A model generated the notes under the pieces. It was given only the letters and a program-made list of their open reading frames with translations, was not told the origin of the DNA and ran no database searches. 64,000 nt of DNA from Bacilli bacterium (lineage in GTDB: Bacteria; Bacillota_I; Bacilli_A; RFN20; DUOF01). The stretch spans positions 2,432 to 66,431 of the forward strand of contig JAFWYE010000010.1 in NCBI GenBank assembly GCA_017517765.1, written 5' to 3'. Shown here piece by piece: positions 48,093-56,004 of this stretch. Within the stretch, counting starts at the first letter, position 1. Each line of letters opens with the position of its first letter. The position numbers were made by a program, and so were the translations under genes.

Positions 48093-49274
48093 GTGATTGA
48101 TGTGGGAAGGGTAATAGTTCATATAGATTTAAATGCGTTTTTTGCATCAGTTGAAGAAATTAAAAATCCTTTATTAAAAAATAAGCCTATAGCAGTTGGA
48201 GGAAAAGGTAGAAGGGGAGTAGTATCTACTGCTAACTATGTTGCTAGAAAATATGGAGTACATAGTGCTATGCCAATATCACAGGCATTAAAATTATGTC
48301 CTCAGCTAATTATAGTAGAAGGTAATCATGAAGATTATTATAGGTATTCAAATGAGTTTTTTAAACTTATTAGAAGTTATTTGGGAGACAAAATAGAAGT
48401 TGCATCAATTGATGAATGTTATGTAGATTTTAGTGATTATAAGGCTAAATGTAATGATCCAATACTTCATCTAAAAACTATGCAAAAAGAAGTTAGTGAA
48501 AAATTAGGGTTGGGTTGCTCAGTTGGTGTTTCCTATAACAAATTTTTAGCTAAAATGGCAAGTGATTTAAAAAAACCAATGGGATTTACAGTAATTAGAA
48601 ATAAAGATGTATCATCGCTTATATGGCCTTTACCTATTGCTGATATGTATGGGGTGGGCAAGAAAACAGCTCCTAGATTAATAGAGCTAGGTATTAAAAC
48701 TATTGGTGATTTAGCAAATTATGACGATAGATATACATTAAAGGCGGTTTTAGGAAAAAACTATATATTTTATAAAGAAAATGCAAATGGAATTGATAAT
48801 AGTGAAGTTATATATCAAAAAGTGGATGCTAAATCTATTGGGAACTCCACCACATATGAGAAAGATTTAGAAGATGAAAGTGAGATAAGAATGGCATTAA
48901 AGGCACTTTCAAAAAGTGTGAGTGAGAGTGTTATTAGCCAAAATATGCTTGGTTTTACTGTGTCTATCACTATCAGATACACAGATTTTTATACTATTAC
49001 TAGATCTGTTACTTTAAAAGAGCCTATATGTAATGATGAAGAAATATATATGAAAGCAGTATCCTTATTTGAAAAAAATTATGATAATAGACCTGTAAGA
49101 TTATTAGGGGTTACATTATCCTCATTAAAGGAGAAAAAAGAAGTATTACAACAAATGAGTATCTTCGACTTAAACATTAATAAAAAGACTACTACTGAGA
49201 TTATTAATGATTTAAATAAACTTCTTGAAGGTAATTATTTGATGAAGGCCAGTGAGGTAAAAAAAGATGAATAA
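48093..49274 (+). CDS. dinB: DNA polymerase IV
   Basis: HIDLNAFFASVE, SIDECYVD and the Y-family layout. Confidence 0.9.
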   Translation: MIDVGRVIVHIDLNAFFASVEEIKNPLLKNKPIAVGGKGRRGVVSTANYVARKYGVHSAMPISQALKLCPQLIIVEGNHEDYYRYSNEFFKLIRSYLGDKIEVASIDECYVDFSDYKAKCNDPILHLKTMQKEVSEKLGLGCSVGVSYNKFLAKMASDLKKPMGFTVIRNKDVSSLIWPLPIADMYGVGKKTAPRLIELGIKTIGDLANYDDRYTLKAVLGKNYIFYKENANGIDNSEVIYQKVDAKSIGNSTTYEKDLEDESEIRMALKALSKSVSESVISQNMLGFTVSITIRYTDFYTITRSVTLKEPICNDEEIYMKAVSLFEKNYDNRPVRLLGVTLSSLKEKKEVLQQMSIFDLNINKKTTTEIINDLNKLLEGNYLMKASEVKKDE

Positions 49275-50106
49275 GTATATAGAATTATATAGAGATTATA
49301 TGATTGTTACTAAAGGATATAGTATCAATACAGTAAATTCTTATTTAAGGGATATAAGACAATATTTTGAACTAACTAAGGGTAGGGGAGTAGAATATTA
49401 TTTTGAATATTTAGCAAAGAATAATTATAGTAGTGCAAGTCAAAATAGAAAGATCAGTGCACTTAATAACTATTACACTTACTTAATTTCATTTAATTAT
49501 TGTGATTATAATCCTTTTTATGGGGTTGAATTTGCTAAAAGGGAAAAGAAACTTCCTGAATATTTAAGTTATGACGAAGTACTAAGATTATTAGAAGTTG
49601 TAGAAGATAATTATTTAAATAGAGTTATATTAGAAGTTTTGTATGGCTGTGGTCTTAGAGTTAGTGAACTTTGCTCCTTAAAGATTAGTGATATTCATTT
49701 TGAAGAGTCACTTATTGAATGTTTTGGTAAGGGAAATAAACAAAGATATGTCCCAATTAATGAAGCTGCATTATTTGCGATAAATGATTATTTAGTCAAA
49801 TTTAGAAGTAAACTCGAATATAAAGAGAGTAATGATGTCTTGCTTTTAAATAAAAAGGGAAGAGTAATAAAAAGAGAATATATAAATAAAATGTTAAATA
49901 AAGCTAGTAAAAAAGCAGGTATTAATAAAAGAATACATCCACATATGCTAAGGCATACTTTTTCTACTCATTTATTAGAAAATGGTGCTAATTTGAGAAG
50001 TATTCAAACTATGCTAGGGCACAAAAATTTGTCTACAACTGAGATATATACGCATATAGATAAGAAAAAATTAATAGATGACTATAATAAATACTTTAAA
50101 GAATAG
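49267..50106 (+). CDS. xerD: Tyrosine recombinase XerD (RipX-like)
   Basis: C-terminal HMLRHTFSTHLLENGANLRSIQTMLGHKNLSTTEIYTH. The xerD-deoB neighbourhood matches B. subtilis ripX-drm. Confidence 0.8.
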   Translation: MNKYIELYRDYMIVTKGYSINTVNSYLRDIRQYFELTKGRGVEYYFEYLAKNNYSSASQNRKISALNNYYTYLISFNYCDYNPFYGVEFAKREKKLPEYLSYDEVLRLLEVVEDNYLNRVILEVLYGCGLRVSELCSLKISDIHFEESLIECFGKGNKQRYVPINEAALFAINDYLVKFRSKLEYKESNDVLLLNKKGRVIKREYINKMLNKASKKAGINKRIHPHMLRHTFSTHLLENGANLRSIQTMLGHKNLSTTEIYTHIDKKKLIDDYNKYFKE

Positions 50107-50150
50107 GTATTTTTAAAGATTTGATTTAAAATATTAGAGGTGATTTATTT

Positions 50151-51335
50151 ATGTATAAGAGAATATTTTTAATAGTGTTTGATTCACTTGGAATTGGAAA
50201 TGGGAAAGATGCTAAAAAGTTTGATGATGTAGGTAGTAATACTTTAAATAGTGTATTAGGAGCAGGGAAGTTTAATTTGCCTTGTCTTTCTAAATTGGGG
50301 TTTTTAAATTTGTCTAGTGATAGAAAGTATCATCAAAATGGTTATGAAGGTATTATTTGTAAATTAAATGAAGTTAGTGCAGGAAAAGATACATTAACTG
50401 GACATTATGAAATAATGGGATTAAAAGTAGAAAAACCTTCAGTTACTTTTACTGAAACTGGGTTCCCAGATGAGCTAATTGAAGAACTTGAAAGAAGATG
50501 GGGAAGAAAGATTATTGGTAATAAGAGTGCAAGTGGTACTGAAATTATTAAAGAATTAGGTGAAAGACATATGAAAACTGGTGAAGCTATAGTTTATACT
50601 AGTGCGGATTCAGTTCTTCAAATTGCTGCTAATGAAGCTGTAATACCATTAAAAGAATTATATAAGATGTGTGAGATAGCTAGAGAAGTTACTTTAAAGG
50701 ATGAATGGAAAGTAGATAGAATTATTGCTAGACCATTTATTGGTACTAATGCTACTAACTTTACTAGAACAAGTAACAGACATGACTATGCAACTTCACC
50801 ATTTGCTCCTACATATATGGATAATTTAAAAGAAGCTGGATATGATGTCATTGCTATTGGAAAGATTAATGATATCTTTAATGGTCAAGGAATAACTTAT
50901 TTTGAAAAAACTAAATCTAATATTGATGGCATGGAAAAAACTATTAGAATTGCTAAGGATGTAGATTTTACAGGACTATGTTTTGTTAACTTGGTTGAAT
51001 TTGATAGCGAATATGGTCATAGAAGAAATCCTATTGGCTATTTAAGATGCTTGGAAGATGCTGATGTGAAAATGAGAGCATTAGTTAATTCAATGAAAGA
51101 TGATGATTTATTAATCATTACTGCAGACCATGGAAATGATCCAACATACAAAGGAACAGATCATACACGTGAACAAGTTCCATTTGTTGCATATTCAAAA
51201 TCTCTTGTTAATAAAGGACATATGATTTCTAGTCAAGATACATTTGCTTGTATTGGTGCTACTATCATTGATAACTTTAATGTGGATGCAAAAGATCATC
51301 AAATTGGTAAATCTTTATTATCAATGATTAAATAA
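50151..51335 (+). CDS. deoB: Phosphopentomutase
   Basis: The N-terminal DSLGIG, the TADHGNDPT motif, and the length fit DeoB. Confidence 0.9.
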   Translation: MYKRIFLIVFDSLGIGNGKDAKKFDDVGSNTLNSVLGAGKFNLPCLSKLGFLNLSSDRKYHQNGYEGIICKLNEVSAGKDTLTGHYEIMGLKVEKPSVTFTETGFPDELIEELERRWGRKIIGNKSASGTEIIKELGERHMKTGEAIVYTSADSVLQIAANEAVIPLKELYKMCEIAREVTLKDEWKVDRIIARPFIGTNATNFTRTSNRHDYATSPFAPTYMDNLKEAGYDVIAIGKINDIFNGQGITYFEKTKSNIDGMEKTIRIAKDVDFTGLCFVNLVEFDSEYGHRRNPIGYLRCLEDADVKMRALVNSMKDDDLLIITADHGNDPTYKGTDHTREQVPFVAYSKSLVNKGHMISSQDTFACIGATIIDNFNVDAKDHQIGKSLLSMIK

Positions 51336-51363
51336 AAATCACATAATGTAAATTATGCGAAGT
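51336..51363 (-). other. dif: Candidate dif site (XerC/XerD chromosome dimer resolution site)
   Basis: The minus-strand 28-mer reads ACTTCGCATAA-TTTACA-TTATGTGATTT. It shares ACTTC with the B. subtilis dif left arm and CGCATAA with the E. coli left arm. It shares TTATGT with the XerD arm of both (consensus sequences recalled from memory). It lies at the gene-orientation switch, 1.2 kb from xerD. Confidence 0.6.
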
Positions 51364-51384
51364 TATAAAAAATAAATTTATTAA

Positions 51385-51414
51385 GGTGGTATTACTTGAA
51401 TATCGCCTTTTTTT
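51385..51414 (+). terminator. Rho-independent terminator after deoB
   Basis: Stem ggtggtatt / aatatcgcc (two G-U pairs), loop acttg, 7-T run. Confidence 0.65.
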
Positions 51415-51465
51415 ATTCCCTTCCCTACAATTTTACACAACTTTATTTTTTATCTTCTCATTAAG

Positions 51466-51494
51466 TTGAAGCTCTTGCCTTGCTTTTATATAAT
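51466..51494 (+). promoter_or_regulatory. Candidate sigma-A promoter
   Basis: TTGAAG, 17 nt, TATAAT, about 30 nt upstream of the RBS GAGGTGA. Confidence 0.45.
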
Positions 51495-51525
51495 AGGTTT
51501 ATACGGATTATTGAGGTGATTTACT

Positions 51526-51921
51526 ATGAAACACACTACATTAGATGTAAAGGCTATCGTTACCAAGGAAACTCTTGATAGAATGGCTGAAAAACAAAAA
51601 ACAGATAAGCCTATAACTCCTGAGGATGCTCCTACTAATGCTGAAATTACTGAAGGACGATCTAGAGAAAATTTAACTAGAGGCCAAAGATGGAGAATTA
51701 AGTTAAAGGCTGCTGGTGGTATGCTTGTTAAAGGATTAATTGCAGCAGCAGCAGTTATTGGTGTTATTAAACTATTTAATCCTGCTTTTGCTATACCTGC
51801 ATTACTTGTAGGTGCTGCTAACATGGGTACAATCGCTGATTTTGCATGTAAAGCAGTAGCGGCCTTCAAAGATGGTGCCACTGCCCTATTTACTAAAGCA
51901 ATGCCAGCAGGAGCGAGGTGA
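51526..51921 (+). CDS. Ala/Gly-rich small protein (131 aa): polar N-terminal half plus two hydrophobic or amphipathic helices
   Basis: Good RBS and promoter. The C-terminal half reads GGMLVKGLIAAAAVIGVIKLFNPAFAIPALLVGAANMGTIADFACKAVAAFKDGATALF. It is locally GC-richer than its surroundings. Confidence 0.6.
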   Translation: MKHTTLDVKAIVTKETLDRMAEKQKTDKPITPEDAPTNAEITEGRSRENLTRGQRWRIKLKAAGGMLVKGLIAAAAVIGVIKLFNPAFAIPALLVGAANMGTIADFACKAVAAFKDGATALFTKAMPAGAR

Positions 51922-51927
51922 AATTAA

Positions 51928-52188
51928 TTGGATAACGTAATTCAAAAAGATGATGTTGTTGTATTATCAGATAACAAAAGTTATTCTGTTTTGAGAGTTT
52001 TTGAATATGAGGGAGATTCATATGTGGTGTTTCTTCAAAGAACTGACTATGATGAAAAAAATCCCGTTGTTTTGTTTGCTAGGGAAAGAGTAGACGATGA
52101 AAAAGTTTCAGTAGACATTATTTTAGATGAAGATTTTATACGTGAACTTTCTGCTCACTTACAAAGCATTTCAGATGATAATGAATAA
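51928..52188 (+). CDS. DUF1292-family protein
   Basis: 86 aa. VVLSDNKSYSVLRVFEYEGDSYVVFLQ...VLFARE...DEDF fits the DUF1292 pattern. The TTG start follows the RBS GAGGTGA. Confidence 0.55.
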   Translation: MDNVIQKDDVVVLSDNKSYSVLRVFEYEGDSYVVFLQRTDYDEKNPVVLFARERVDDEKVSVDIILDEDFIRELSAHLQSISDDNE

Positions 52189-52214
52189 AGAGATCGATTG
52201 ATCTCTTTTTTTAT
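52188..52214. terminator. Hairpin between convergent genes (probably a bidirectional terminator)
   Basis: Stem aagagatc / gatctctt, loop gatt, T-run on the plus strand. Confidence 0.6.
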
Positions 52215-52666
52215 ATAGATAAAAGTAGTGTTTTTAAATCAAATGATATATTAGAGAGAACATTTATTGTATCATAGTCCCCTGCCTCACTAGTTTTGGA
52301 TATGATATCTTTAATTATATCTAGTATTATTTCTATTTCAGTATTTATATTCTCTATAATACTCTCCTCTTTGTAATCTTGTGATACGTAGGTTTTTATA
52401 GGACTAGTTAATTCTAAATCATCTAATTTAAATATTGGATATCCTTTTTTGATTTTTATTAAATTTTTTACTTTTTCTAAAGAATCATCTATTAAATAAG
52501 ATAATTCTTCTAGATTGGATGGTAATCCCAAGTTTTTCTCTATTATTGCATTACTAGAATAGTTCATTATATTTATTTTTTCAGTTAAAAAAGCTGCAAA
52601 TAGCTTATTTAAGGAAGATAGTTCATTCACTTCCCTATACATCGAATAATAATCATAATTTTTCAA
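52211..52666 (-). CDS. Hypothetical helical protein (about 151 aa), possibly a degenerate Dps/ferritin-like four-helix bundle
   Basis: The TTG start at 52666 lies 7 nt after AGGAGTGA (alternative ATG at 52702 has no RBS). The C-terminal EAGDYDTINVLSNISFDLKTLLLSI resembles the Dps C-terminal helix. No ferroxidase ligands are recognisable. Confidence 0.45.
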   Translation of the reverse strand: MKNYDYYSMYREVNELSSLNKLFAAFLTEKINIMNYSSNAIIEKNLGLPSNLEELSYLIDDSLEKVKNLIKIKKGYPIFKLDDLELTSPIKTYVSQDYKEESIIENINTEIEIILDIIKDIISKTSEAGDYDTINVLSNISFDLKTLLLSI

Positions 52667-52710
52667 ATAATCACTCCTAGTTATGTATATGAAAAAAAGC
52701 ATAACGTGTG

Positions 52711-53298
52711 CTATGCTTTAAAAAGTGATAAGTAATTTTGTACTTTATGACTTACTTTTAATAATTTAGAGTAATCTAATAGCTTATGATAATCTATATC
52801 ATCTTTATTGAAATAATAATTAATTAGCTTATTATATTCTCTATGATCAAATCTATTTTCATTTTTTATTATGTCACAAATAGAACGTTCTAGCTCATAA
52901 ACCTTTATATAACCATCATTAGTTTTTATTTTTGTTATTCCAATGTTATAATTGACACTAGAATTATAGAAAATCATGCAATTTTGGTACCTAGAAGCGT
53001 TGTAACCTTGTGGGACACTTATTTCTACCATCTTGGGTGCTTTCTTTAAAAAACCAAGCAAATTTAAGGCGGTAAAGCATGAATAGATTATTTGCTTATT
53101 ATTTTTTTGAAATTCATATAAAGGATTAATACTGTATTCTTTGTTAATACTATATACTCCCCTACCTATTTTGTAAATTCTATTTTGTTTTAATAGGAAA
53201 GTTAGATATATCCTGTGATAACCTAATTCGGTTACCTTTTTAGATGTAATCTTTCCTTCTTTTTTAATAATTTCATATAAATAATCTTCTTTTTTCAT
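52711..53298 (-). CDS. AbiEi-like (type IV toxin-antitoxin antitoxin family) wHTH protein
   Basis: The N-terminal GKITSKKVTELGYHRIYLTFLLKQNRIYKIGRGVYSI fits the AbiEi_4 pattern (G.vt...l..lG.....l..l...G.l.r..rGvY). Confidence 0.55.
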   Translation of the reverse strand: MKKEDYLYEIIKKEGKITSKKVTELGYHRIYLTFLLKQNRIYKIGRGVYSINKEYSINPLYEFQKNNKQIIYSCFTALNLLGFLKKAPKMVEISVPQGYNASRYQNCMIFYNSSVNYNIGITKIKTNDGYIKVYELERSICDIIKNENRFDHREYNKLINYYFNKDDIDYHKLLDYSKLLKVSHKVQNYLSLFKA

Positions 53299-53423
53299 CT
53301 TATACCTCTTTTCTTTAATTGTTTATCAAAAAAGAAAAAAAGTAAATACTATGCGAGCATAATTTTTATATATTACAAATATTCTTTAAATGATGACATG
53401 AAAAGAAAAAAAGTAATTTCATA

Positions 53424-53451
53424 AAAAAGAAAAAAGGATCAACTAGATCCT
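53424..53451 (-). terminator. Rho-independent terminator of the yqeG-nadD operon
   Basis: On the minus strand: aggatc-tagtt-gatcct followed by a T-rich run. Confidence 0.6.
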
Positions 53452-53523
53452 ATCTCCAAAAAAATTATTATATGCGCTAATATCTTTCATCGTAATAAGC
53501 TCCTATATTTTGTTATATATTGA

Positions 53524-54606
53524 TTATTTATTGGCTAAATAATATTCAAAACATTCAATAGTATCTTTATCTTTTATAACCTCTTTTGACTCTAAATATT
53601 CTTTATTAGTTTTTAAAACTTCGATGAATCCTTTTTCAAAGTCTTTGCAACATAATTCTATTAAATGAGTTGTATCAAAATTTCTATTTGGTTCTATCTT
53701 ATCTGCTACATAGATTAGTTTTTCTAGTGTAGACATATTCGCTCTACCAGTAGTATGATGTTTAATAGAGTTTAATATATCTTTATCATTTATATGAAAA
53801 TGATTATTAGCGATATACTCACCTGTATATTGATGTACTATTTTCTCATCTACATCTAAATATTCTATATAATAATTATTCATTATTTCATTTTTAGTAT
53901 CTTCATCTAAATGTTTAGCAATATCATGTAATAAAGCAGCTTTTTCTACTTTATTCTTTTTAATTCCTAATTTTGCTTCTTTATTTATTAAAAGTGCAGT
54001 ATCACTAACAGCAACAACATGATGAAATCTAGGGCCACTTAAATACATTGAAACTTGTTCTTTTAAGTACAAGTTAGTAGCTAATATATATTCTTTTATA
54101 GTTTTATCTGTGTACTCATATTCTCCTCTTTTAATAAGTGAACTAGATATGTCTTTATAGGCATGATTTATAAAAATATAATTAGGATTTACTAAATCCT
54201 CTTTATGACAAACTACACCCTCTCTTCTTGCTACAATAAACTTGAATCTAGAATAGAGCATATCAAACTTATACCATTCTTTTATATGACATAATTGATC
54301 TGCTCCTAGTAAGATATAGGCGTTATCATCTTCATTTAAAAGAGAAAATATATTATTATATGTAGTTTCCATATCACTATAGTTAAAATAAAAATCTAAT
54401 AATTTAATATTATCTTTATCTTTGCAAAATTTAGTTAACATTGTTTTTCTAATAGAAAAAGGGGTTAATTTTCCCTTTTTTGAAGTCTTATTTAATCCTA
54501 AGTATACAATGTCCCCTTTTACTTTTTTTATGGCATTTTCAATCATTGAAACATGTCCTAAATGAAGAGGATCAAAGCTACCAAAAAATAAAATTACATT
54601 TCTCAT
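53524..54606 (-). CDS. nadD: Fused nicotinate-nucleotide adenylyltransferase NadD and YqeK HD-domain hydrolase
   Basis: N-terminal GSFDPLHLGH and ISSSLIKRG (NadD). The C-terminal half has HHVVAV...LLHDIAKH (YqeK HD domain). Confidence 0.8.
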   Translation of the reverse strand: MRNVILFFGSFDPLHLGHVSMIENAIKKVKGDIVYLGLNKTSKKGKLTPFSIRKTMLTKFCKDKDNIKLLDFYFNYSDMETTYNNIFSLLNEDDNAYILLGADQLCHIKEWYKFDMLYSRFKFIVARREGVVCHKEDLVNPNYIFINHAYKDISSSLIKRGEYEYTDKTIKEYILATNLYLKEQVSMYLSGPRFHHVVAVSDTALLINKEAKLGIKKNKVEKAALLHDIAKHLDEDTKNEIMNNYYIEYLDVDEKIVHQYTGEYIANNHFHINDKDILNSIKHHTTGRANMSTLEKLIYVADKIEPNRNFDTTHLIELCCKDFEKGFIEVLKTNKEYLESKEVIKDKDTIECFEYYLANK

Positions 54607-54890
54607 TATAATTTAATAAGTTTCTTTTTACTTTCTCTATATAAAACAATGTTTCTTCCAATTATTTGAATAAGCTCACTATTAGTAGCGCTAGTTATAT
54701 CATATGCTATTTGATTAAGCGGTGAGCTTACATTTTTTAGTACACTTATTTTGATTAATTCATGTGCCTCTAAAGCTAAATCAAGCCCTTTAATTAAATT
54801 ATTAGTAATTTCTTCTTTTCCTACTTGATAGATAGGTTTTAAAGTCATTGCCATAGATCTAAGCTTAACTTTTTGTTTAACAGTAAGCAT
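54606..54890 (-). CDS. yhbY: Ribosome assembly RNA-binding protein YhbY (CRM domain)
   Basis: LRSMAMTLKPIYQVGKEEITNNLIKGLDLALEAHELIKISV. Confidence 0.85.
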   Translation of the reverse strand: MLTVKQKVKLRSMAMTLKPIYQVGKEEITNNLIKGLDLALEAHELIKISVLKNVSSPLNQIAYDITSATNSELIQIIGRNIVLYRESKKKLIKL

Positions 54891-54891
54891 A

Positions 54892-56004
54892 TTAAATCAT
54901 GGCCTCCCTAACATATACATTACAACAAGAAGGAACTTGTAATTCTAATTCTTGTTTGTTACCTTCAAAACTTAGCCATCCATATCCAGAAATCACTACA
55001 TCAAGTTTTCCTTCTTTTTCAATAGTTAAGTTGACTGTTTTTAAGTCTTTAATACTATTTATATTATTGCTTATTGGATGAATGTTTTTAGTTTTTACTA
55101 AGTTATTAAATGTATTGCTTTTTTTATCTTCCTTACATCTTACTACATTAATAAAGTTAGATAAGTATGAAGTAAAGTTAGTATCTTCTCCACCCTTAAA
55201 AGTAAATGTAGCCAATCCTCCTAAAATAAGAGTTTGCTTATTTTTTAGTTGGAATGTAGTAGGCTTAATTTCTTTTCTAGGTAAGATGTACTTTAATACT
55301 TTAGGCTCTACTGCATAATAAATAGAATTTTTAGTTATAATACCTGGAGTATCATAAATATAACTCTTTTTATCTAAAGGTATATTGATTACATTTAATG
55401 TAGTACCTGGGAAATAAGAAGTAGTAATTAATTTATCTGTGAAATTTGAATAATTCTTTAATAATGAATTTATAAATGTAGATTTACCTACATTAGAATT
55501 TCCAATAATATATACGTCTCTTCCATTTCTTAGTTCTTCAATTTTATCAAATATTAAATCTGTATTATAGTTAGTTTGACCACTTGAAAGTATTACATCT
55601 ATAACATGAGAAATACCTAAAGTATTTAATCTAGATTTAATCCATGTTTTTAATTTATTATCTTTAACAGATGCAGGAATTAAGTCTCTTTTATTAGCTA
55701 AAATAAGAATAGGTTTATCAAGTAAATAAGAAGATAGGTTTTCTATAACAGATGATTCAAAAGCAAATAAATCAATTACATATACTACTAATGCATCATG
55801 TTTTCCTACATTTTTTAAGATATTTACAAAATCTTCTGCTACTAATTGTATCTCACTATTAGTATTGTAATGTTGTAATTTGAAACAACGTTGACATAAT
55901 ATATGTTCTCTAGACTCTAAAATCTTAGCAGGCACATATCCAGCCTCATTCTCATTATTACTATGTAATACATTACCACAACCATAACATCTTAATTCAC
56001 TCAT
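54892..56004 (-). CDS. yqeH: Ribosome biogenesis GTPase YqeH
   Basis: N-terminal CYGCG...CQRC zinc finger and a circularly permuted GTPase (NKRDL...GNSNVGKST...DTPG). Confidence 0.9.
   Translation of the reverse strand: MSELRCYGCGNVLHSNNENEAGYVPAKILESREHILCQRCFKLQHYNTNSEIQLVAEDFVNILKNVGKHDALVVYVIDLFAFESSVIENLSSYLLDKPILILANKRDLIPASVKDNKLKTWIKSRLNTLGISHVIDVILSSGQTNYNTDLIFDKIEELRNGRDVYIIGNSNVGKSTFINSLLKNYSNFTDKLITTSYFPGTTLNVINIPLDKKSYIYDTPGIITKNSIYYAVEPKVLKYILPRKEIKPTTFQLKNKQTLILGGLATFTFKGGEDTNFTSYLSNFINVVRCKEDKKSNTFNNLVKTKNIHPISNNINSIKDLKTVNLTIEKEGKLDVVISGYGWLSFEGNKQELELQVPSCCNVYVREAMI

What the first reader, a model, noticed from the sequence alone, without database searches (positions are those of the whole stretch)
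51336..51363. dif-like XerCD site immediately after deoB, marking a probable replication terminus
**Sequence match.** On the minus strand the 28-mer reads ACTTCGCATAA TTTACA TTATGTGATTT, which is two 11-bp arms around a 6-bp AT-rich centre. Recalled consensus sequences for comparison are:
- B. subtilis dif: ACTTCCTAGAA TATATA TTATGTAAACT
- E. coli dif: GGTGCGCATAA TGTATA TTATGTTAAAT

The window site matches 8 of 11 positions in both Bacillus arms. It contains the E. coli inner left-arm CGCATAA exactly. It keeps the invariant TTATGT of the XerD arm. The arms are mutually inverted (CATAA / TTATG).

**Position.**
- It starts at the base after the deoB stop codon.
- It is about 1.2 kb downstream of xerD.
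- It lies 0.85 kb before the point where gene orientation flips.
Basis: partly seen in the sequence, partly recalled or inferred. Interest (0 to 1): 0.6.

Follow-up and report, generated by a model that had tools for sequence, protein, structure and literature searches.

The report
Chromosomal dif site at replication terminus
The 28-base sequence just after deoB is almost certainly this gut bacterium's dif site, where the XerC and XerD recombinases separate joined sister chromosomes at the replication terminus; this is an ordinary, well-known kind of element, correctly spotted.

Summary
ACTTCGCATAA-TTTACA-TTATGTGATTT lies on the minus strand at 51336-51363 and starts at the base after the deoB stop codon.

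- **Copy number:** it occurs once in the 1.55-Mb, 10-contig assembly. The next-best 28-mer has at least 8 mismatches.
- **Position:** it lies 0.9 kb from the only terminus-type GC-skew maximum in the assembly. The only skew minimum is 0.7 kb from dnaA.
- **Conservation:** ACTTCG[C/T]ATAA-N6-TTATGTNANNT is found in 97 of 151 genomes of the same order, once each in 95 of them. A reversed-pattern control found it in 0 of 151.
- **Relatives' termini:** in 9 of 10 relatives with strong skew, the skew maximum is 34-867 bp from the site. In two relatives the site is about half a genome from dnaA.
- **Machinery:** the genome has exactly two tyrosine recombinases, both Xer-type with intact catalytic residues, and one FtsK with a gamma domain.

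**Caveat:** a matrix built only from published Firmicutes dif sites ranks the site 1st to 3rd of 3.1 million positions and does not separate it cleanly. The outer XerD arm has drifted in this family.

**Curiosity:** in 29 of 30 relatives dif sits between the convergent dinB-xerD-deoB and nadD/yqeK-yqeH operons, so xerD is kept within 1.2-7 kb of dif.

Verdict: a new member of a known kind, of low interest.

The parts
51336..51363 (-). dif site, 28 bp: ACTTCGCATAA TTTACA TTATGTGATTT
   Evidence: Sequence read. Unique in the assembly. Top hit of the order-specific profile, 30.5 bits against 15.9 for the next best. Orthologous single-copy sites occur in relatives.
51353..51363 (-). Left arm ACTTCGCATAA, the inferred XerC (CodV) binding arm
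   Evidence: Near-invariant in 84 distinct sites of the order, though 10 of its 11 positions were held by the search pattern. Identical to the left arm of the predicted Lactobacillus casei dif in Kono 2011. Assignment to XerC is by analogy with E. coli and B. subtilis dif and was not tested.
51347..51352 (-). 6-bp central region TTTACA, where strand exchange is inferred to occur
   Evidence: Variable among relatives except the first T (84 of 84) and the last A (73 of 84). These positions were free in the search pattern. The same-genus genome G002 differs only here.
51336..51346 (-). Right arm TTATGTGATTT, the inferred XerD (RipX) binding arm
   Evidence: TTATGT is near-invariant in the order; those positions were held by the search pattern. 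The outer bases have drifted in this family: [G/T/A]AT[T/A/G]T against [A/T]AAC[T/C] elsewhere.
49267..50106 (+). xerD-like tyrosine recombinase gene, 279 aa
   Evidence: Pfam Phage_integrase plus SAM-like domain. TIGR02225 XerD scores 278 bits against 272.6 for XerC, both below the equivalog cut-offs. Aligns to E. coli XerD 1a0p at E=1e-41 with the R, K, H-x-x-R, H and Y catalytic residues conserved.
50151..51335 (+). deoB (phosphopentomutase), whose stop codon abuts dif
   Evidence: NF003766 at 525 bits and TIGR01696 at 495 bits, both above cut-off.
51383..51409 (+). Intrinsic-terminator-like hairpin plus T-run downstream of dif, which would place dif inside the deoB 3' untranslated region
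   Evidence: 11-pair stem followed by TTTTTATT. This is a consensus scan only.
51958..53448 (.). Plateau of the cumulative GC-skew maximum (peak at 52258), and the point where gene orientation converges (52188/52211, bidirectional terminator-like hairpin 52187-52208)

Best explanation
The 28-mer is the chromosome's dif site, the single target of the XerC/XerD site-specific recombination system that resolves chromosome dimers.

**Inferred mechanism, by homology with the E. coli and B. subtilis systems:**
1. The XerC/CodV-like recombinase, encoded after trmFO on contig C1, binds the ACTTCGCATAA arm.
2. The XerD/RipX-like recombinase, encoded 1.2 kb upstream of the site, binds the TTATGTGATTT arm.
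3. When two sister dif sites are brought together at the closing septum, the two recombinases exchange the strand pairs at the edges of the 6-bp central region. An FtsK/SpoIIIE-family translocase probably assists. A dimer is thereby converted into two monomers.

The site marks the zone where the two replichores meet.

**Shown here:** sequence architecture, single copy, position at the only terminus-type skew switch, order-wide conservation at the termini of relatives, and presence of intact XerC-like, XerD-like and FtsK-gamma genes.

**Inferred only:** which arm binds which protein, the order of strand exchange, and dependence on FtsK.
For: **Architecture and position in this genome**
- Sequence and coordinates.
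- Unique in 1.55 Mb.
- The cumulative skew maximum of C5 is at window 52258, 0.9 kb away. It is the only internal maximum among 10 contigs.
- The only internal skew minimum, C1:678600, is 0.7 kb from dnaA at C1:679307.

**Conservation in relatives**
- With up to 3 mismatches the pattern hits 22 of 41 relatives; the control hits 2.
- With up to 1 mismatch and a relaxed outer arm it hits 97 of 151 genomes of the order, 95 of them once. The control hits 0 of 151.
- With 20-kb flanks, the skew maximum is within 34-867 bp of the site in 9 of 10 relatives.
- With 8-kb flanks in 20 more relatives, it is within 530 bp in 14. The other six have weak skew on one or both flanks.
- G144 is a single 1.06-Mb contig with dnaA at 204 kb and the site at 719 kb. 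In G006, dnaA is at 848 kb and the site at 147 kb of a 1.4-Mb genome.
- In the same-genus genome G002, both arms are identical at 22 of 22 positions. Only the central region differs, and the flank diverges about 10 bp beyond the site.

**Link to known dif sites**
- The left arm equals that of the published predicted L. casei dif. Sister families in the order carry near-canonical Firmicutes dif. For example, G027's ACTTCGCATAATATACATTATGTAAACT is one central base from the L. casei site.

**Machinery**
- There are only two tyrosine recombinases in the genome.
- One is XerC-like and follows trmFO. The other is XerD-like with catalytic residues intact.
- There is one FtsK with a gamma domain.
Against: - A weight matrix built only from 40 published Firmicutes dif sites scores the site 9.8-18.5 bits. 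With the one-count pseudocount its 9.8 compares with a training-set minimum of 24.7, the only setting for which training scores were computed. It ranks 1st to 3rd rather than clearly first. The cause is the outer XerD arm (GATTT against AAACT) and a C in the central region.
- Both recombinases score below the NCBIfam XerC and XerD equivalog cut-offs.
- The assembly is a draft MAG: 10 contigs, 97% complete, 6.9% contamination. A second site in an unassembled gap cannot be strictly excluded.
- No FtsK-orienting polar motif could be identified.
- No recombination has been observed.
Confidence: 0.9

Rival explanations
1. The site is a genuine Xer target but is recombined by only one of the two recombinases, or independently of FtsK. 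The mechanism would then depart from the E. coli XerCD-FtsK paradigm, as reported for B. subtilis (FtsK analogues) and for XerS and XerH systems.
For: Both recombinases fall below the XerC and XerD equivalog cut-offs. xerD is kept close to dif across the order, an arrangement typical of single-recombinase modules such as difSL-xerS (PMC1914069). [quoted passage not shown]
Against: Two paralogous Xer-type recombinases with complete catalytic sets are retained in a reduced 1.5-Mb genome. The site has two different arms, like XerCD dif, and is 28 bp with a 6-bp centre rather than the 31 bp of difSL. An FtsK with a gamma domain is present.
Confidence: 0.06
2. The 28-mer is one junction of an element integrated by Xer recombination (an IMEX), or is an attachment site. 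The small accessory islet next to it (51526-52188) would be the cargo, and the site's main relevance would be as an integration hot spot.
For: The two small genes next to the XerC-arm side (orf131 and a DUF1292-like gene) have no counterpart near the site in family relatives. The flank diverges from the same-genus genome right after the site. Two genomes of the order, G010 and G065, carry two identical copies near contig ends.
Against: There is no second dif-like site or credible half-site in 49-56 kb of the window. The islet proteins have no phage or replication hallmarks. The site itself is orthologous and syntenic across the order, so it is the resident chromosomal site whatever lies beside it.
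Confidence: 0.03
3. The match is a chance AT-rich partial palindrome, or a cis-element of deoB expression such as an operator or part of a terminator, with no role in recombination.
For: The genome is 71% A+T. Generic published-site matrices find other sites with similar scores. The site lies between the deoB stop and a terminator-like hairpin.
Against: The site is conserved in single copy in 95 of 151 genomes of the order, against 0 control hits. In relatives it lies from 12 bp to 6.2 kb from deoB while always staying at the skew and orientation switch. The arms pair over only 5-6 bases, too weak for a terminator, and a separate terminator-like hairpin follows.
Confidence: 0.01

Closest known systems
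Bacillus subtilis dif (ACTTCCTAGAATATATATTATGTAAACT) with CodV (XerC) and RipX (XerD)
   Same: 28 bp with 11-6-11 architecture. 16 of 22 arm positions are identical, including ACTTC, the inner (A/T)AA, and TTATGT. It is single-copy at the terminus. The two recombinase genes sit in the same neighbourhoods as recalled for B. subtilis: xerC after trmFO/gid and xerD next to deoB/drm. The B. subtilis gene order is from memory.
   Different: The outer XerD arm reads GATTT instead of AAACT, and the centre reads TTTACA instead of TATATA. Here xerD lies 1.2 kb from dif, whereas in B. subtilis ripX is far from dif (from memory).
Predicted dif of Lactobacillus casei (ACTTCGCATAATATATATTATGTAAACT; Kono et al. 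2011, PMC3025954, Additional file 2)
   Same: The whole left arm ACTTCGCATAA and the inner right arm TTATGT are identical. Sister families of the window's order carry sites one to three bases from this sequence.
   Different: There are three differences in the outer right arm and three in the centre. The L. casei site is itself a prediction, not an experimentally tested site.
E. coli dif / XerCD / FtsK
   Same: The same architecture, the inner CGCATAA and TTATGT, a position at the skew switch opposite oriC, and an FtsK with a gamma domain in the genome.
   Different: The outer arms differ. No KOPS-like polar motif could be identified here. FtsK dependence is untested.
difSL-xerS module of streptococci and lactococci (PMC1914069)
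   Same: The recombinase gene is kept close to its site at the terminus (for difSL-xerS; here).
   Different: difSL is 31 bp, has weak similarity to classical dif, is acted on by a single, longer recombinase, and lies immediately upstream of xerS. Here the site is a classical 28-bp dif, two XerC/XerD-type recombinases are present, and deoB lies between xerD and dif.

Membership tests
Chromosomal dif site of the XerC/XerD system | 28-bp site with two 11-bp arms in partial inverted symmetry around a 6-bp centre | tested here: met
   ACTTCGCATAA / TTTACA / TTATGTGATTT. The inner CATAA and TTATG are mutually inverted.
Chromosomal dif site of the XerC/XerD system | Significant similarity to established dif sites of the phylum | tested here: inconclusive
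   The left arm is identical to the published L. casei prediction, and 16 of 22 arm positions match B. subtilis. A matrix of 40 published sites ranks it only 1st to 3rd of 3.1 million positions; with the one-count pseudocount it scores 9.8 bits, below the 24.7-bit training minimum. Sites in sister families bridge the gap to the canonical sequence.
Chromosomal dif site of the XerC/XerD system | One copy per chromosome | tested here: met
   no other 28-mer with fewer than 8 mismatches; a 14.6-bit gap to the next hit. This is a draft assembly at 97% completeness.
Chromosomal dif site of the XerC/XerD system | Located in the terminus region, at the GC-skew switch opposite oriC | tested here: met
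   The skew maximum is 0.9 kb away and is the only one in the assembly. The skew minimum lies at dnaA. In relatives the site is about half a genome from dnaA.
Chromosomal dif site of the XerC/XerD system | Cognate XerC and XerD recombinases encoded in the genome | tested here: met
   There are exactly two tyrosine recombinases. Their best NCBIfam models are XerD and XerC respectively, both below the equivalog cut-offs. The catalytic R-K-H-R-H-Y residues are present in both (direct reading).
Chromosomal dif site of the XerC/XerD system | Conserved as an orthologous single-copy site in related genomes | tested here: met
   97 of 151 genomes of the order against 0 controls. The same convergent-operon slot is used in 29 of 30 relatives.
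Chromosomal dif site of the XerC/XerD system | Supports XerCD-mediated recombination and chromosome dimer resolution | not testable with these tools
   Needs binding, cleavage and resolution assays.
Chromosomal dif site of the XerC/XerD system | Flanked by converging FtsK/SpoIIIE-orienting polar motifs | tested here: inconclusive
   no k-mer is skewed beyond what base composition predicts (z up to 4.4). GAGAAGGG occurs 8 times on the leading strand and once on the lagging strand, too few to map a switch.
difSL/XerS-type single-recombinase module | 31-bp site immediately upstream of a single, long XerS recombinase gene | tested here: not met
   The site is 28 bp. The adjacent recombinase has 279 aa and scores 105 bits on the XerS model against a cut-off of 267. 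A second Xer paralogue is present.

The most novel reading that the evidence does not exclude
In this order of small-genome gut Bacilli, a classical two-recombinase Xer system may have a selected cis-organisation. dif is pinned between the convergent dinB-xerD-deoB and nadD/yqeK-yqeH operons in 29 of 30 genomes examined. These genomes are so diverged that XerD is only 29-52% identical, yet xerD always lies 1.2-7 kb from its own site. In this genus dif sits inside the xerD-deoB transcript's 3' end. If the linkage is selected rather than inherited synteny, it could couple XerD supply or transcription to the terminus. Possible routes are local loading of XerD on dif, or transcription through dif modulating recombination.
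Probability: 0.12. Interest if true: 0.4.

Novelty: new member of a known kind. Interest (0 to 1): 0.18.

Why it matters
**Use for this genome.**
- The site fixes the replication terminus of an uncultured, draft-assembled gut Bacilli genome.
- Together with dnaA at the skew minimum, it gives the replichore layout. That layout helps in scaffolding the 10 contigs and in reading growth rates from metagenome coverage.

**Use for the order.** The work yields an order-specific dif profile, ACTTCG[C/T]ATAA-T-N4-A-TTATGT[A/T]A[A/T]NN, for annotating related MAGs.

**Wider point.** The only feature beyond routine annotation is the order-wide proximity of xerD to dif. It contrasts with the textbook statement that the recombinase genes of classical XerCD systems lie far from dif (PMC1914069).

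Tried and rejected
1. **Published-site matrix.** A weight matrix from 40 non-redundant published Firmicutes dif sites was scanned over the genome with several pseudocounts, with and without the centre (one search timed out). The site ranked 1st to 3rd without clear separation. Sequence similarity to distant dif sites alone would therefore not have identified it. The rivals were set aside for these reasons:
   - C5:99449, C1:132077 and C5:63932 lack the inner ATAA/TTAT core or lie far from the skew switch.
   - C5:63932 lies inside a 768-aa ORF.
   - A looser class-level pattern also hit C4:68786 (ACTTCTTATAATACCAATAATGTTAA). Its TTATGT is broken and it sits on a contig with monotonic skew.
2. 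**Polar motifs.** I searched de novo for FtsK/SpoIIIE-orienting 7-mers and 8-mers and counted GAGAAGGG, GAAGAAG and GGGNAGGG. Nothing exceeded what the very strong base skew predicts, so this adds nothing independent of GC skew.
3. **IMEX reading of the neighbouring islet.** There is no second site or half-site and no phage-like proteins.

Full report
**1. What is there**

The minus strand of window 51336-51363 reads ACTTCGCATAA TTTACA TTATGTGATTT. The three plus-strand bases before it (51333-51335) are the stop codon of the ORF 50151-51335. That ORF is phosphopentomutase DeoB, above NCBIfam's equivalog cut-offs.

Upstream on the same strand lie hflX, an unassigned ORF, spo0A, a dinB-type polymerase and a 279-aa tyrosine recombinase at 49267-50106. 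The recombinase ends 1.23 kb before the site.

The last plus-strand ORF ends at 52188, and minus-strand ORFs begin at 52211. A bidirectional terminator-like hairpin lies between them.

That includes 8 of 11 matches per arm to the B. subtilis dif as printed in Kono et al. 2011.

**2. Is it more than chance?**

- The window is C5:2432-66431 of a 1.55-Mb, 10-contig, 29% G+C assembly.
- The 28-mer occurs once, and no other 28-mer has fewer than 8 mismatches.
- With up to 3 mismatches in the arms, the pattern hits 22 of 41 relatives. The reversed-pattern control hits 2.
- With the outer right arm relaxed (ACTTCGCATAA-N6-TTATGTNANNT, up to 1 mismatch), it hits 97 of 151 genomes of the order, 95 of them exactly once. 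The control hits none.
- Two positions left free in that pattern are nonetheless conserved and agree with the window site. The first central base is T in 84 of 84 distinct sites, and the last central base is A in 73 of 84.
- In the same-genus genome G002 both arms are identical at 22 of 22 positions. Two central bases differ, and the downstream flank becomes unalignable about 10 bp after the site.

This is the pattern expected of a recombinase site: arms constrained, centre free.

**3. Position**

- GC skew on C5 is +0.2 to +0.36 up to about 54 kb and negative afterwards.
- The cumulative maximum is at window 52258, with a plateau over 51958-53448. That is 0.9 kb from the site.
- No other contig has an internal maximum. 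The only internal minimum is at C1:678600, and the only dnaA is at C1:679307. The skew therefore reads replication correctly, and the site lies at the single terminus-type switch.
- In ten relatives with 20-kb flanks, the skew maximum is 34-867 bp from the orthologous site in nine. The exception, G028, has only a 2.5-5-kb positive patch on one side.
- In twenty further relatives with 8-kb flanks, the maximum is within 530 bp in fourteen. The other six have weak skew on one or both flanks.
- G144 is a single 1.06-Mb contig with dnaA at 204 kb and the site at 719 kb, 49% of the circle apart. In G006 the two are 701 kb apart in a 1.4-Mb genome.

**4. Machinery**

- The genome encodes exactly two tyrosine recombinases.
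- The one in the window scores best on the XerD model: 278 bits, against 272.6 for XerC. It aligns to E. coli XerD (PDB 1a0p) at E=1e-41, with Arg, Lys, His-x-x-Arg, His and the Tyr nucleophile in place.
- The other lies directly after trmFO on C1. It scores best on the XerC model, 278 bits against 249 for XerD. The same catalytic motifs are readable in its translation.
- Both fall below NCBIfam's strict equivalog cut-offs. They are diverged Xer proteins, not textbook ones.
- One FtsK/SpoIIIE gene with a gamma domain is present on C1.
- The gene neighbourhoods trmFO-xerC and xerD-deoB match my recollection of codV and ripX in B. subtilis. That comparison is from memory and was not tested.

**5. 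Link to known dif sites, and a caveat**

Kono et al. 2011 list predicted dif sites for 97 Firmicutes. The L. casei site, ACTTCGCATAATATATATTATGTAAACT, shares the entire left arm.

Other families of the window's order carry sites such as ACTTCGCATAATATACATTATGTAAACT (G027) or ...GTATATTATGTAAACT (G130). These are one to two central bases from that published sequence.

The window's own family has drifted in the outer XerD arm: TTATGT[G/T/A]AT[T/A/G]T.

Because of this drift, a matrix from 40 non-redundant published sites scores the window site only 9.8-18.5 bits. With the one-count pseudocount its 9.8 compares with a training minimum of 24.7. It ranks 1st to 3rd among 3.1 million positions, depending on pseudocount.

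The competitors break the inner ATAA/TTAT core, lie inside a long ORF, or lie tens of kilobases or more from the skew switch. As a rough estimate of my own, the chance that one of three top hits falls within 1 kb of the switch in 1.55 Mb is about 0.4%.

A profile of the 84 distinct sites from relatives, excluding this genus, scores the site 30.5 bits. That is within the training range of 29.5-43.0, and the next-best position in the genome scores 15.9. This profile is not independent in sequence, because the relatives were fished with the site's own arms. Their sites are, however, validated independently by position (section 3).

**6. Mechanism**

The best explanation is a classical dif. The XerC-like protein binds the ACTTCGCATAA arm and the XerD-like protein binds the TTATGTGATTT arm. 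Sequential strand exchange occurs at the borders of the 6-bp centre when sister sites are synapsed at the septum, probably assisted by FtsK.

The steps shown here are architecture, copy number, position, conservation and presence of the genes. The arm assignment, the order of cleavage and FtsK dependence are inferred from the E. coli and B. subtilis systems.

PMC1914069 notes that in B. subtilis neither FtsK analogue appears to drive Xer recombination. FtsK dependence is therefore the weakest inferred step.

**7. Beyond the finding**

In 29 of 30 relatives examined, spanning six families, the site lies between the convergent dinB-xerD-deoB operon and the nadD/yqeK-(yhbY)-yqeH operon. It is 12 bp to 6.2 kb from the end of deoB, and xerD is 1.2-7.1 kb from dif.

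XerD identity among these genomes is only 29-52%, so the arrangement is old.

Five of 30 class-level loci outside the order also have deoB and/or xerD within 1.5 kb of their dif-like site.

PMC1914069 describes classical XerCD genes as distant from dif. Kono et al. report xerD genes mostly near the origin. The arrangement here departs from both, but it is most simply explained by conserved synteny around a fixed terminus.

In this genome and in G002, dif sits between the deoB stop codon and a terminator-like hairpin at 51383-51409. It would therefore be transcribed with the operon.

**8. Organism**

The nearest named records are MAGs labelled "Bacilli bacterium". Candidatus Onthovivens has 54% DeoB identity. 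The genome carries spo0A.

**9. Verdict**

This is an ordinary dif site in a lineage where it had not been annotated: a new member of a known kind, of low interest.

Earlier first-stage notes on the same genome describe the gene-orientation switch at 52188/52211. This agrees with my ORF list and the skew.

Noticed in passing
window 48093-56004; relatives L023-L042 and L089-L108: Order-wide synteny. dif always lies between the convergent dinB-xerD-deoB and nadD/yqeK-(yhbY)-yqeH operons (29 of 30 relatives, six families). This keeps xerD 1.2-7.1 kb from dif although XerD is only 29-52% identical. It departs from the usual description of classical XerCD genes as distant from dif.
   Followed up: partly
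window 51336-51409: dif lies between the deoB stop codon and a terminator-like hairpin at 51383-51409, so it is probably transcribed as part of the xerD-deoB mRNA 3' end. In the same-genus genome G002 dif lies 4 bases after the deoB stop codon.
   Followed up: partly
window 51336-51346 and sites listed: Family-specific drift of the outer XerD arm. The window's family has TTATGT[G/T/A]AT[T/A/G]T, while most other families of the order keep the canonical TTATGT[A/T]AAC[T/C]. G at position 24 is seen only in this genus. This may reflect co-evolution with the diverged XerD.
   Followed up: no
window 51526-52188: Two small plus-strand genes sit directly beside the XerC-arm side of dif: a 131-aa ORF with no family match and an 86-aa DUF1292-like ORF. 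They have no counterpart near dif in family relatives, and the same-genus flank diverges right after dif. No second dif-like site and no phage hallmark was found.
   Followed up: partly
L037/L038 (G028:C15:14889-54888): G028 is the one relative whose dif-like site is not at a broad skew switch. Skew is negative on both sides except for a 2.5-5-kb positive patch, and none of the usual neighbours (xerD, deoB, nadD) lies within 20 kb. Possible causes are a rearrangement, a MAG mis-join or a secondary site.
   Followed up: partly
G010:C14:464 and C35:2793; G065:C3:104964 and C8:2; G163:C1:1181635 and 1181688: Two relatives carry two identical dif copies, mostly near contig ends. This could reflect strain mixtures or an element integrated at dif. 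One class-level genome has two dif-like sites 53 bp apart in opposite orientation.
   Followed up: no
L031/L032 (G017) and L033/L034 (G023): In one family (f8) dif is inverted relative to deoB, with the XerC arm proximal, and lies further away (2.5 and 6.2 kb). In all 27 other syntenic relatives examined the XerD arm faces deoB.
   Followed up: no
window 53524-54606: nadD and yqeK are fused into one 360-aa ORF (NCBIfam NF005519 plus TIGR00488). The fusion-sized match is also found in relatives. Another first-stage note has already flagged this.
   Followed up: no
G000:C4:68786-68813: A weak dif-like sequence, ACTTCTTATAATACCAATAATGTTAAAC, is the second-best hit of the order profile at 15.9 bits. 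It sits on a contig with monotonic skew, and its TTATGT core is broken.
   Followed up: partly
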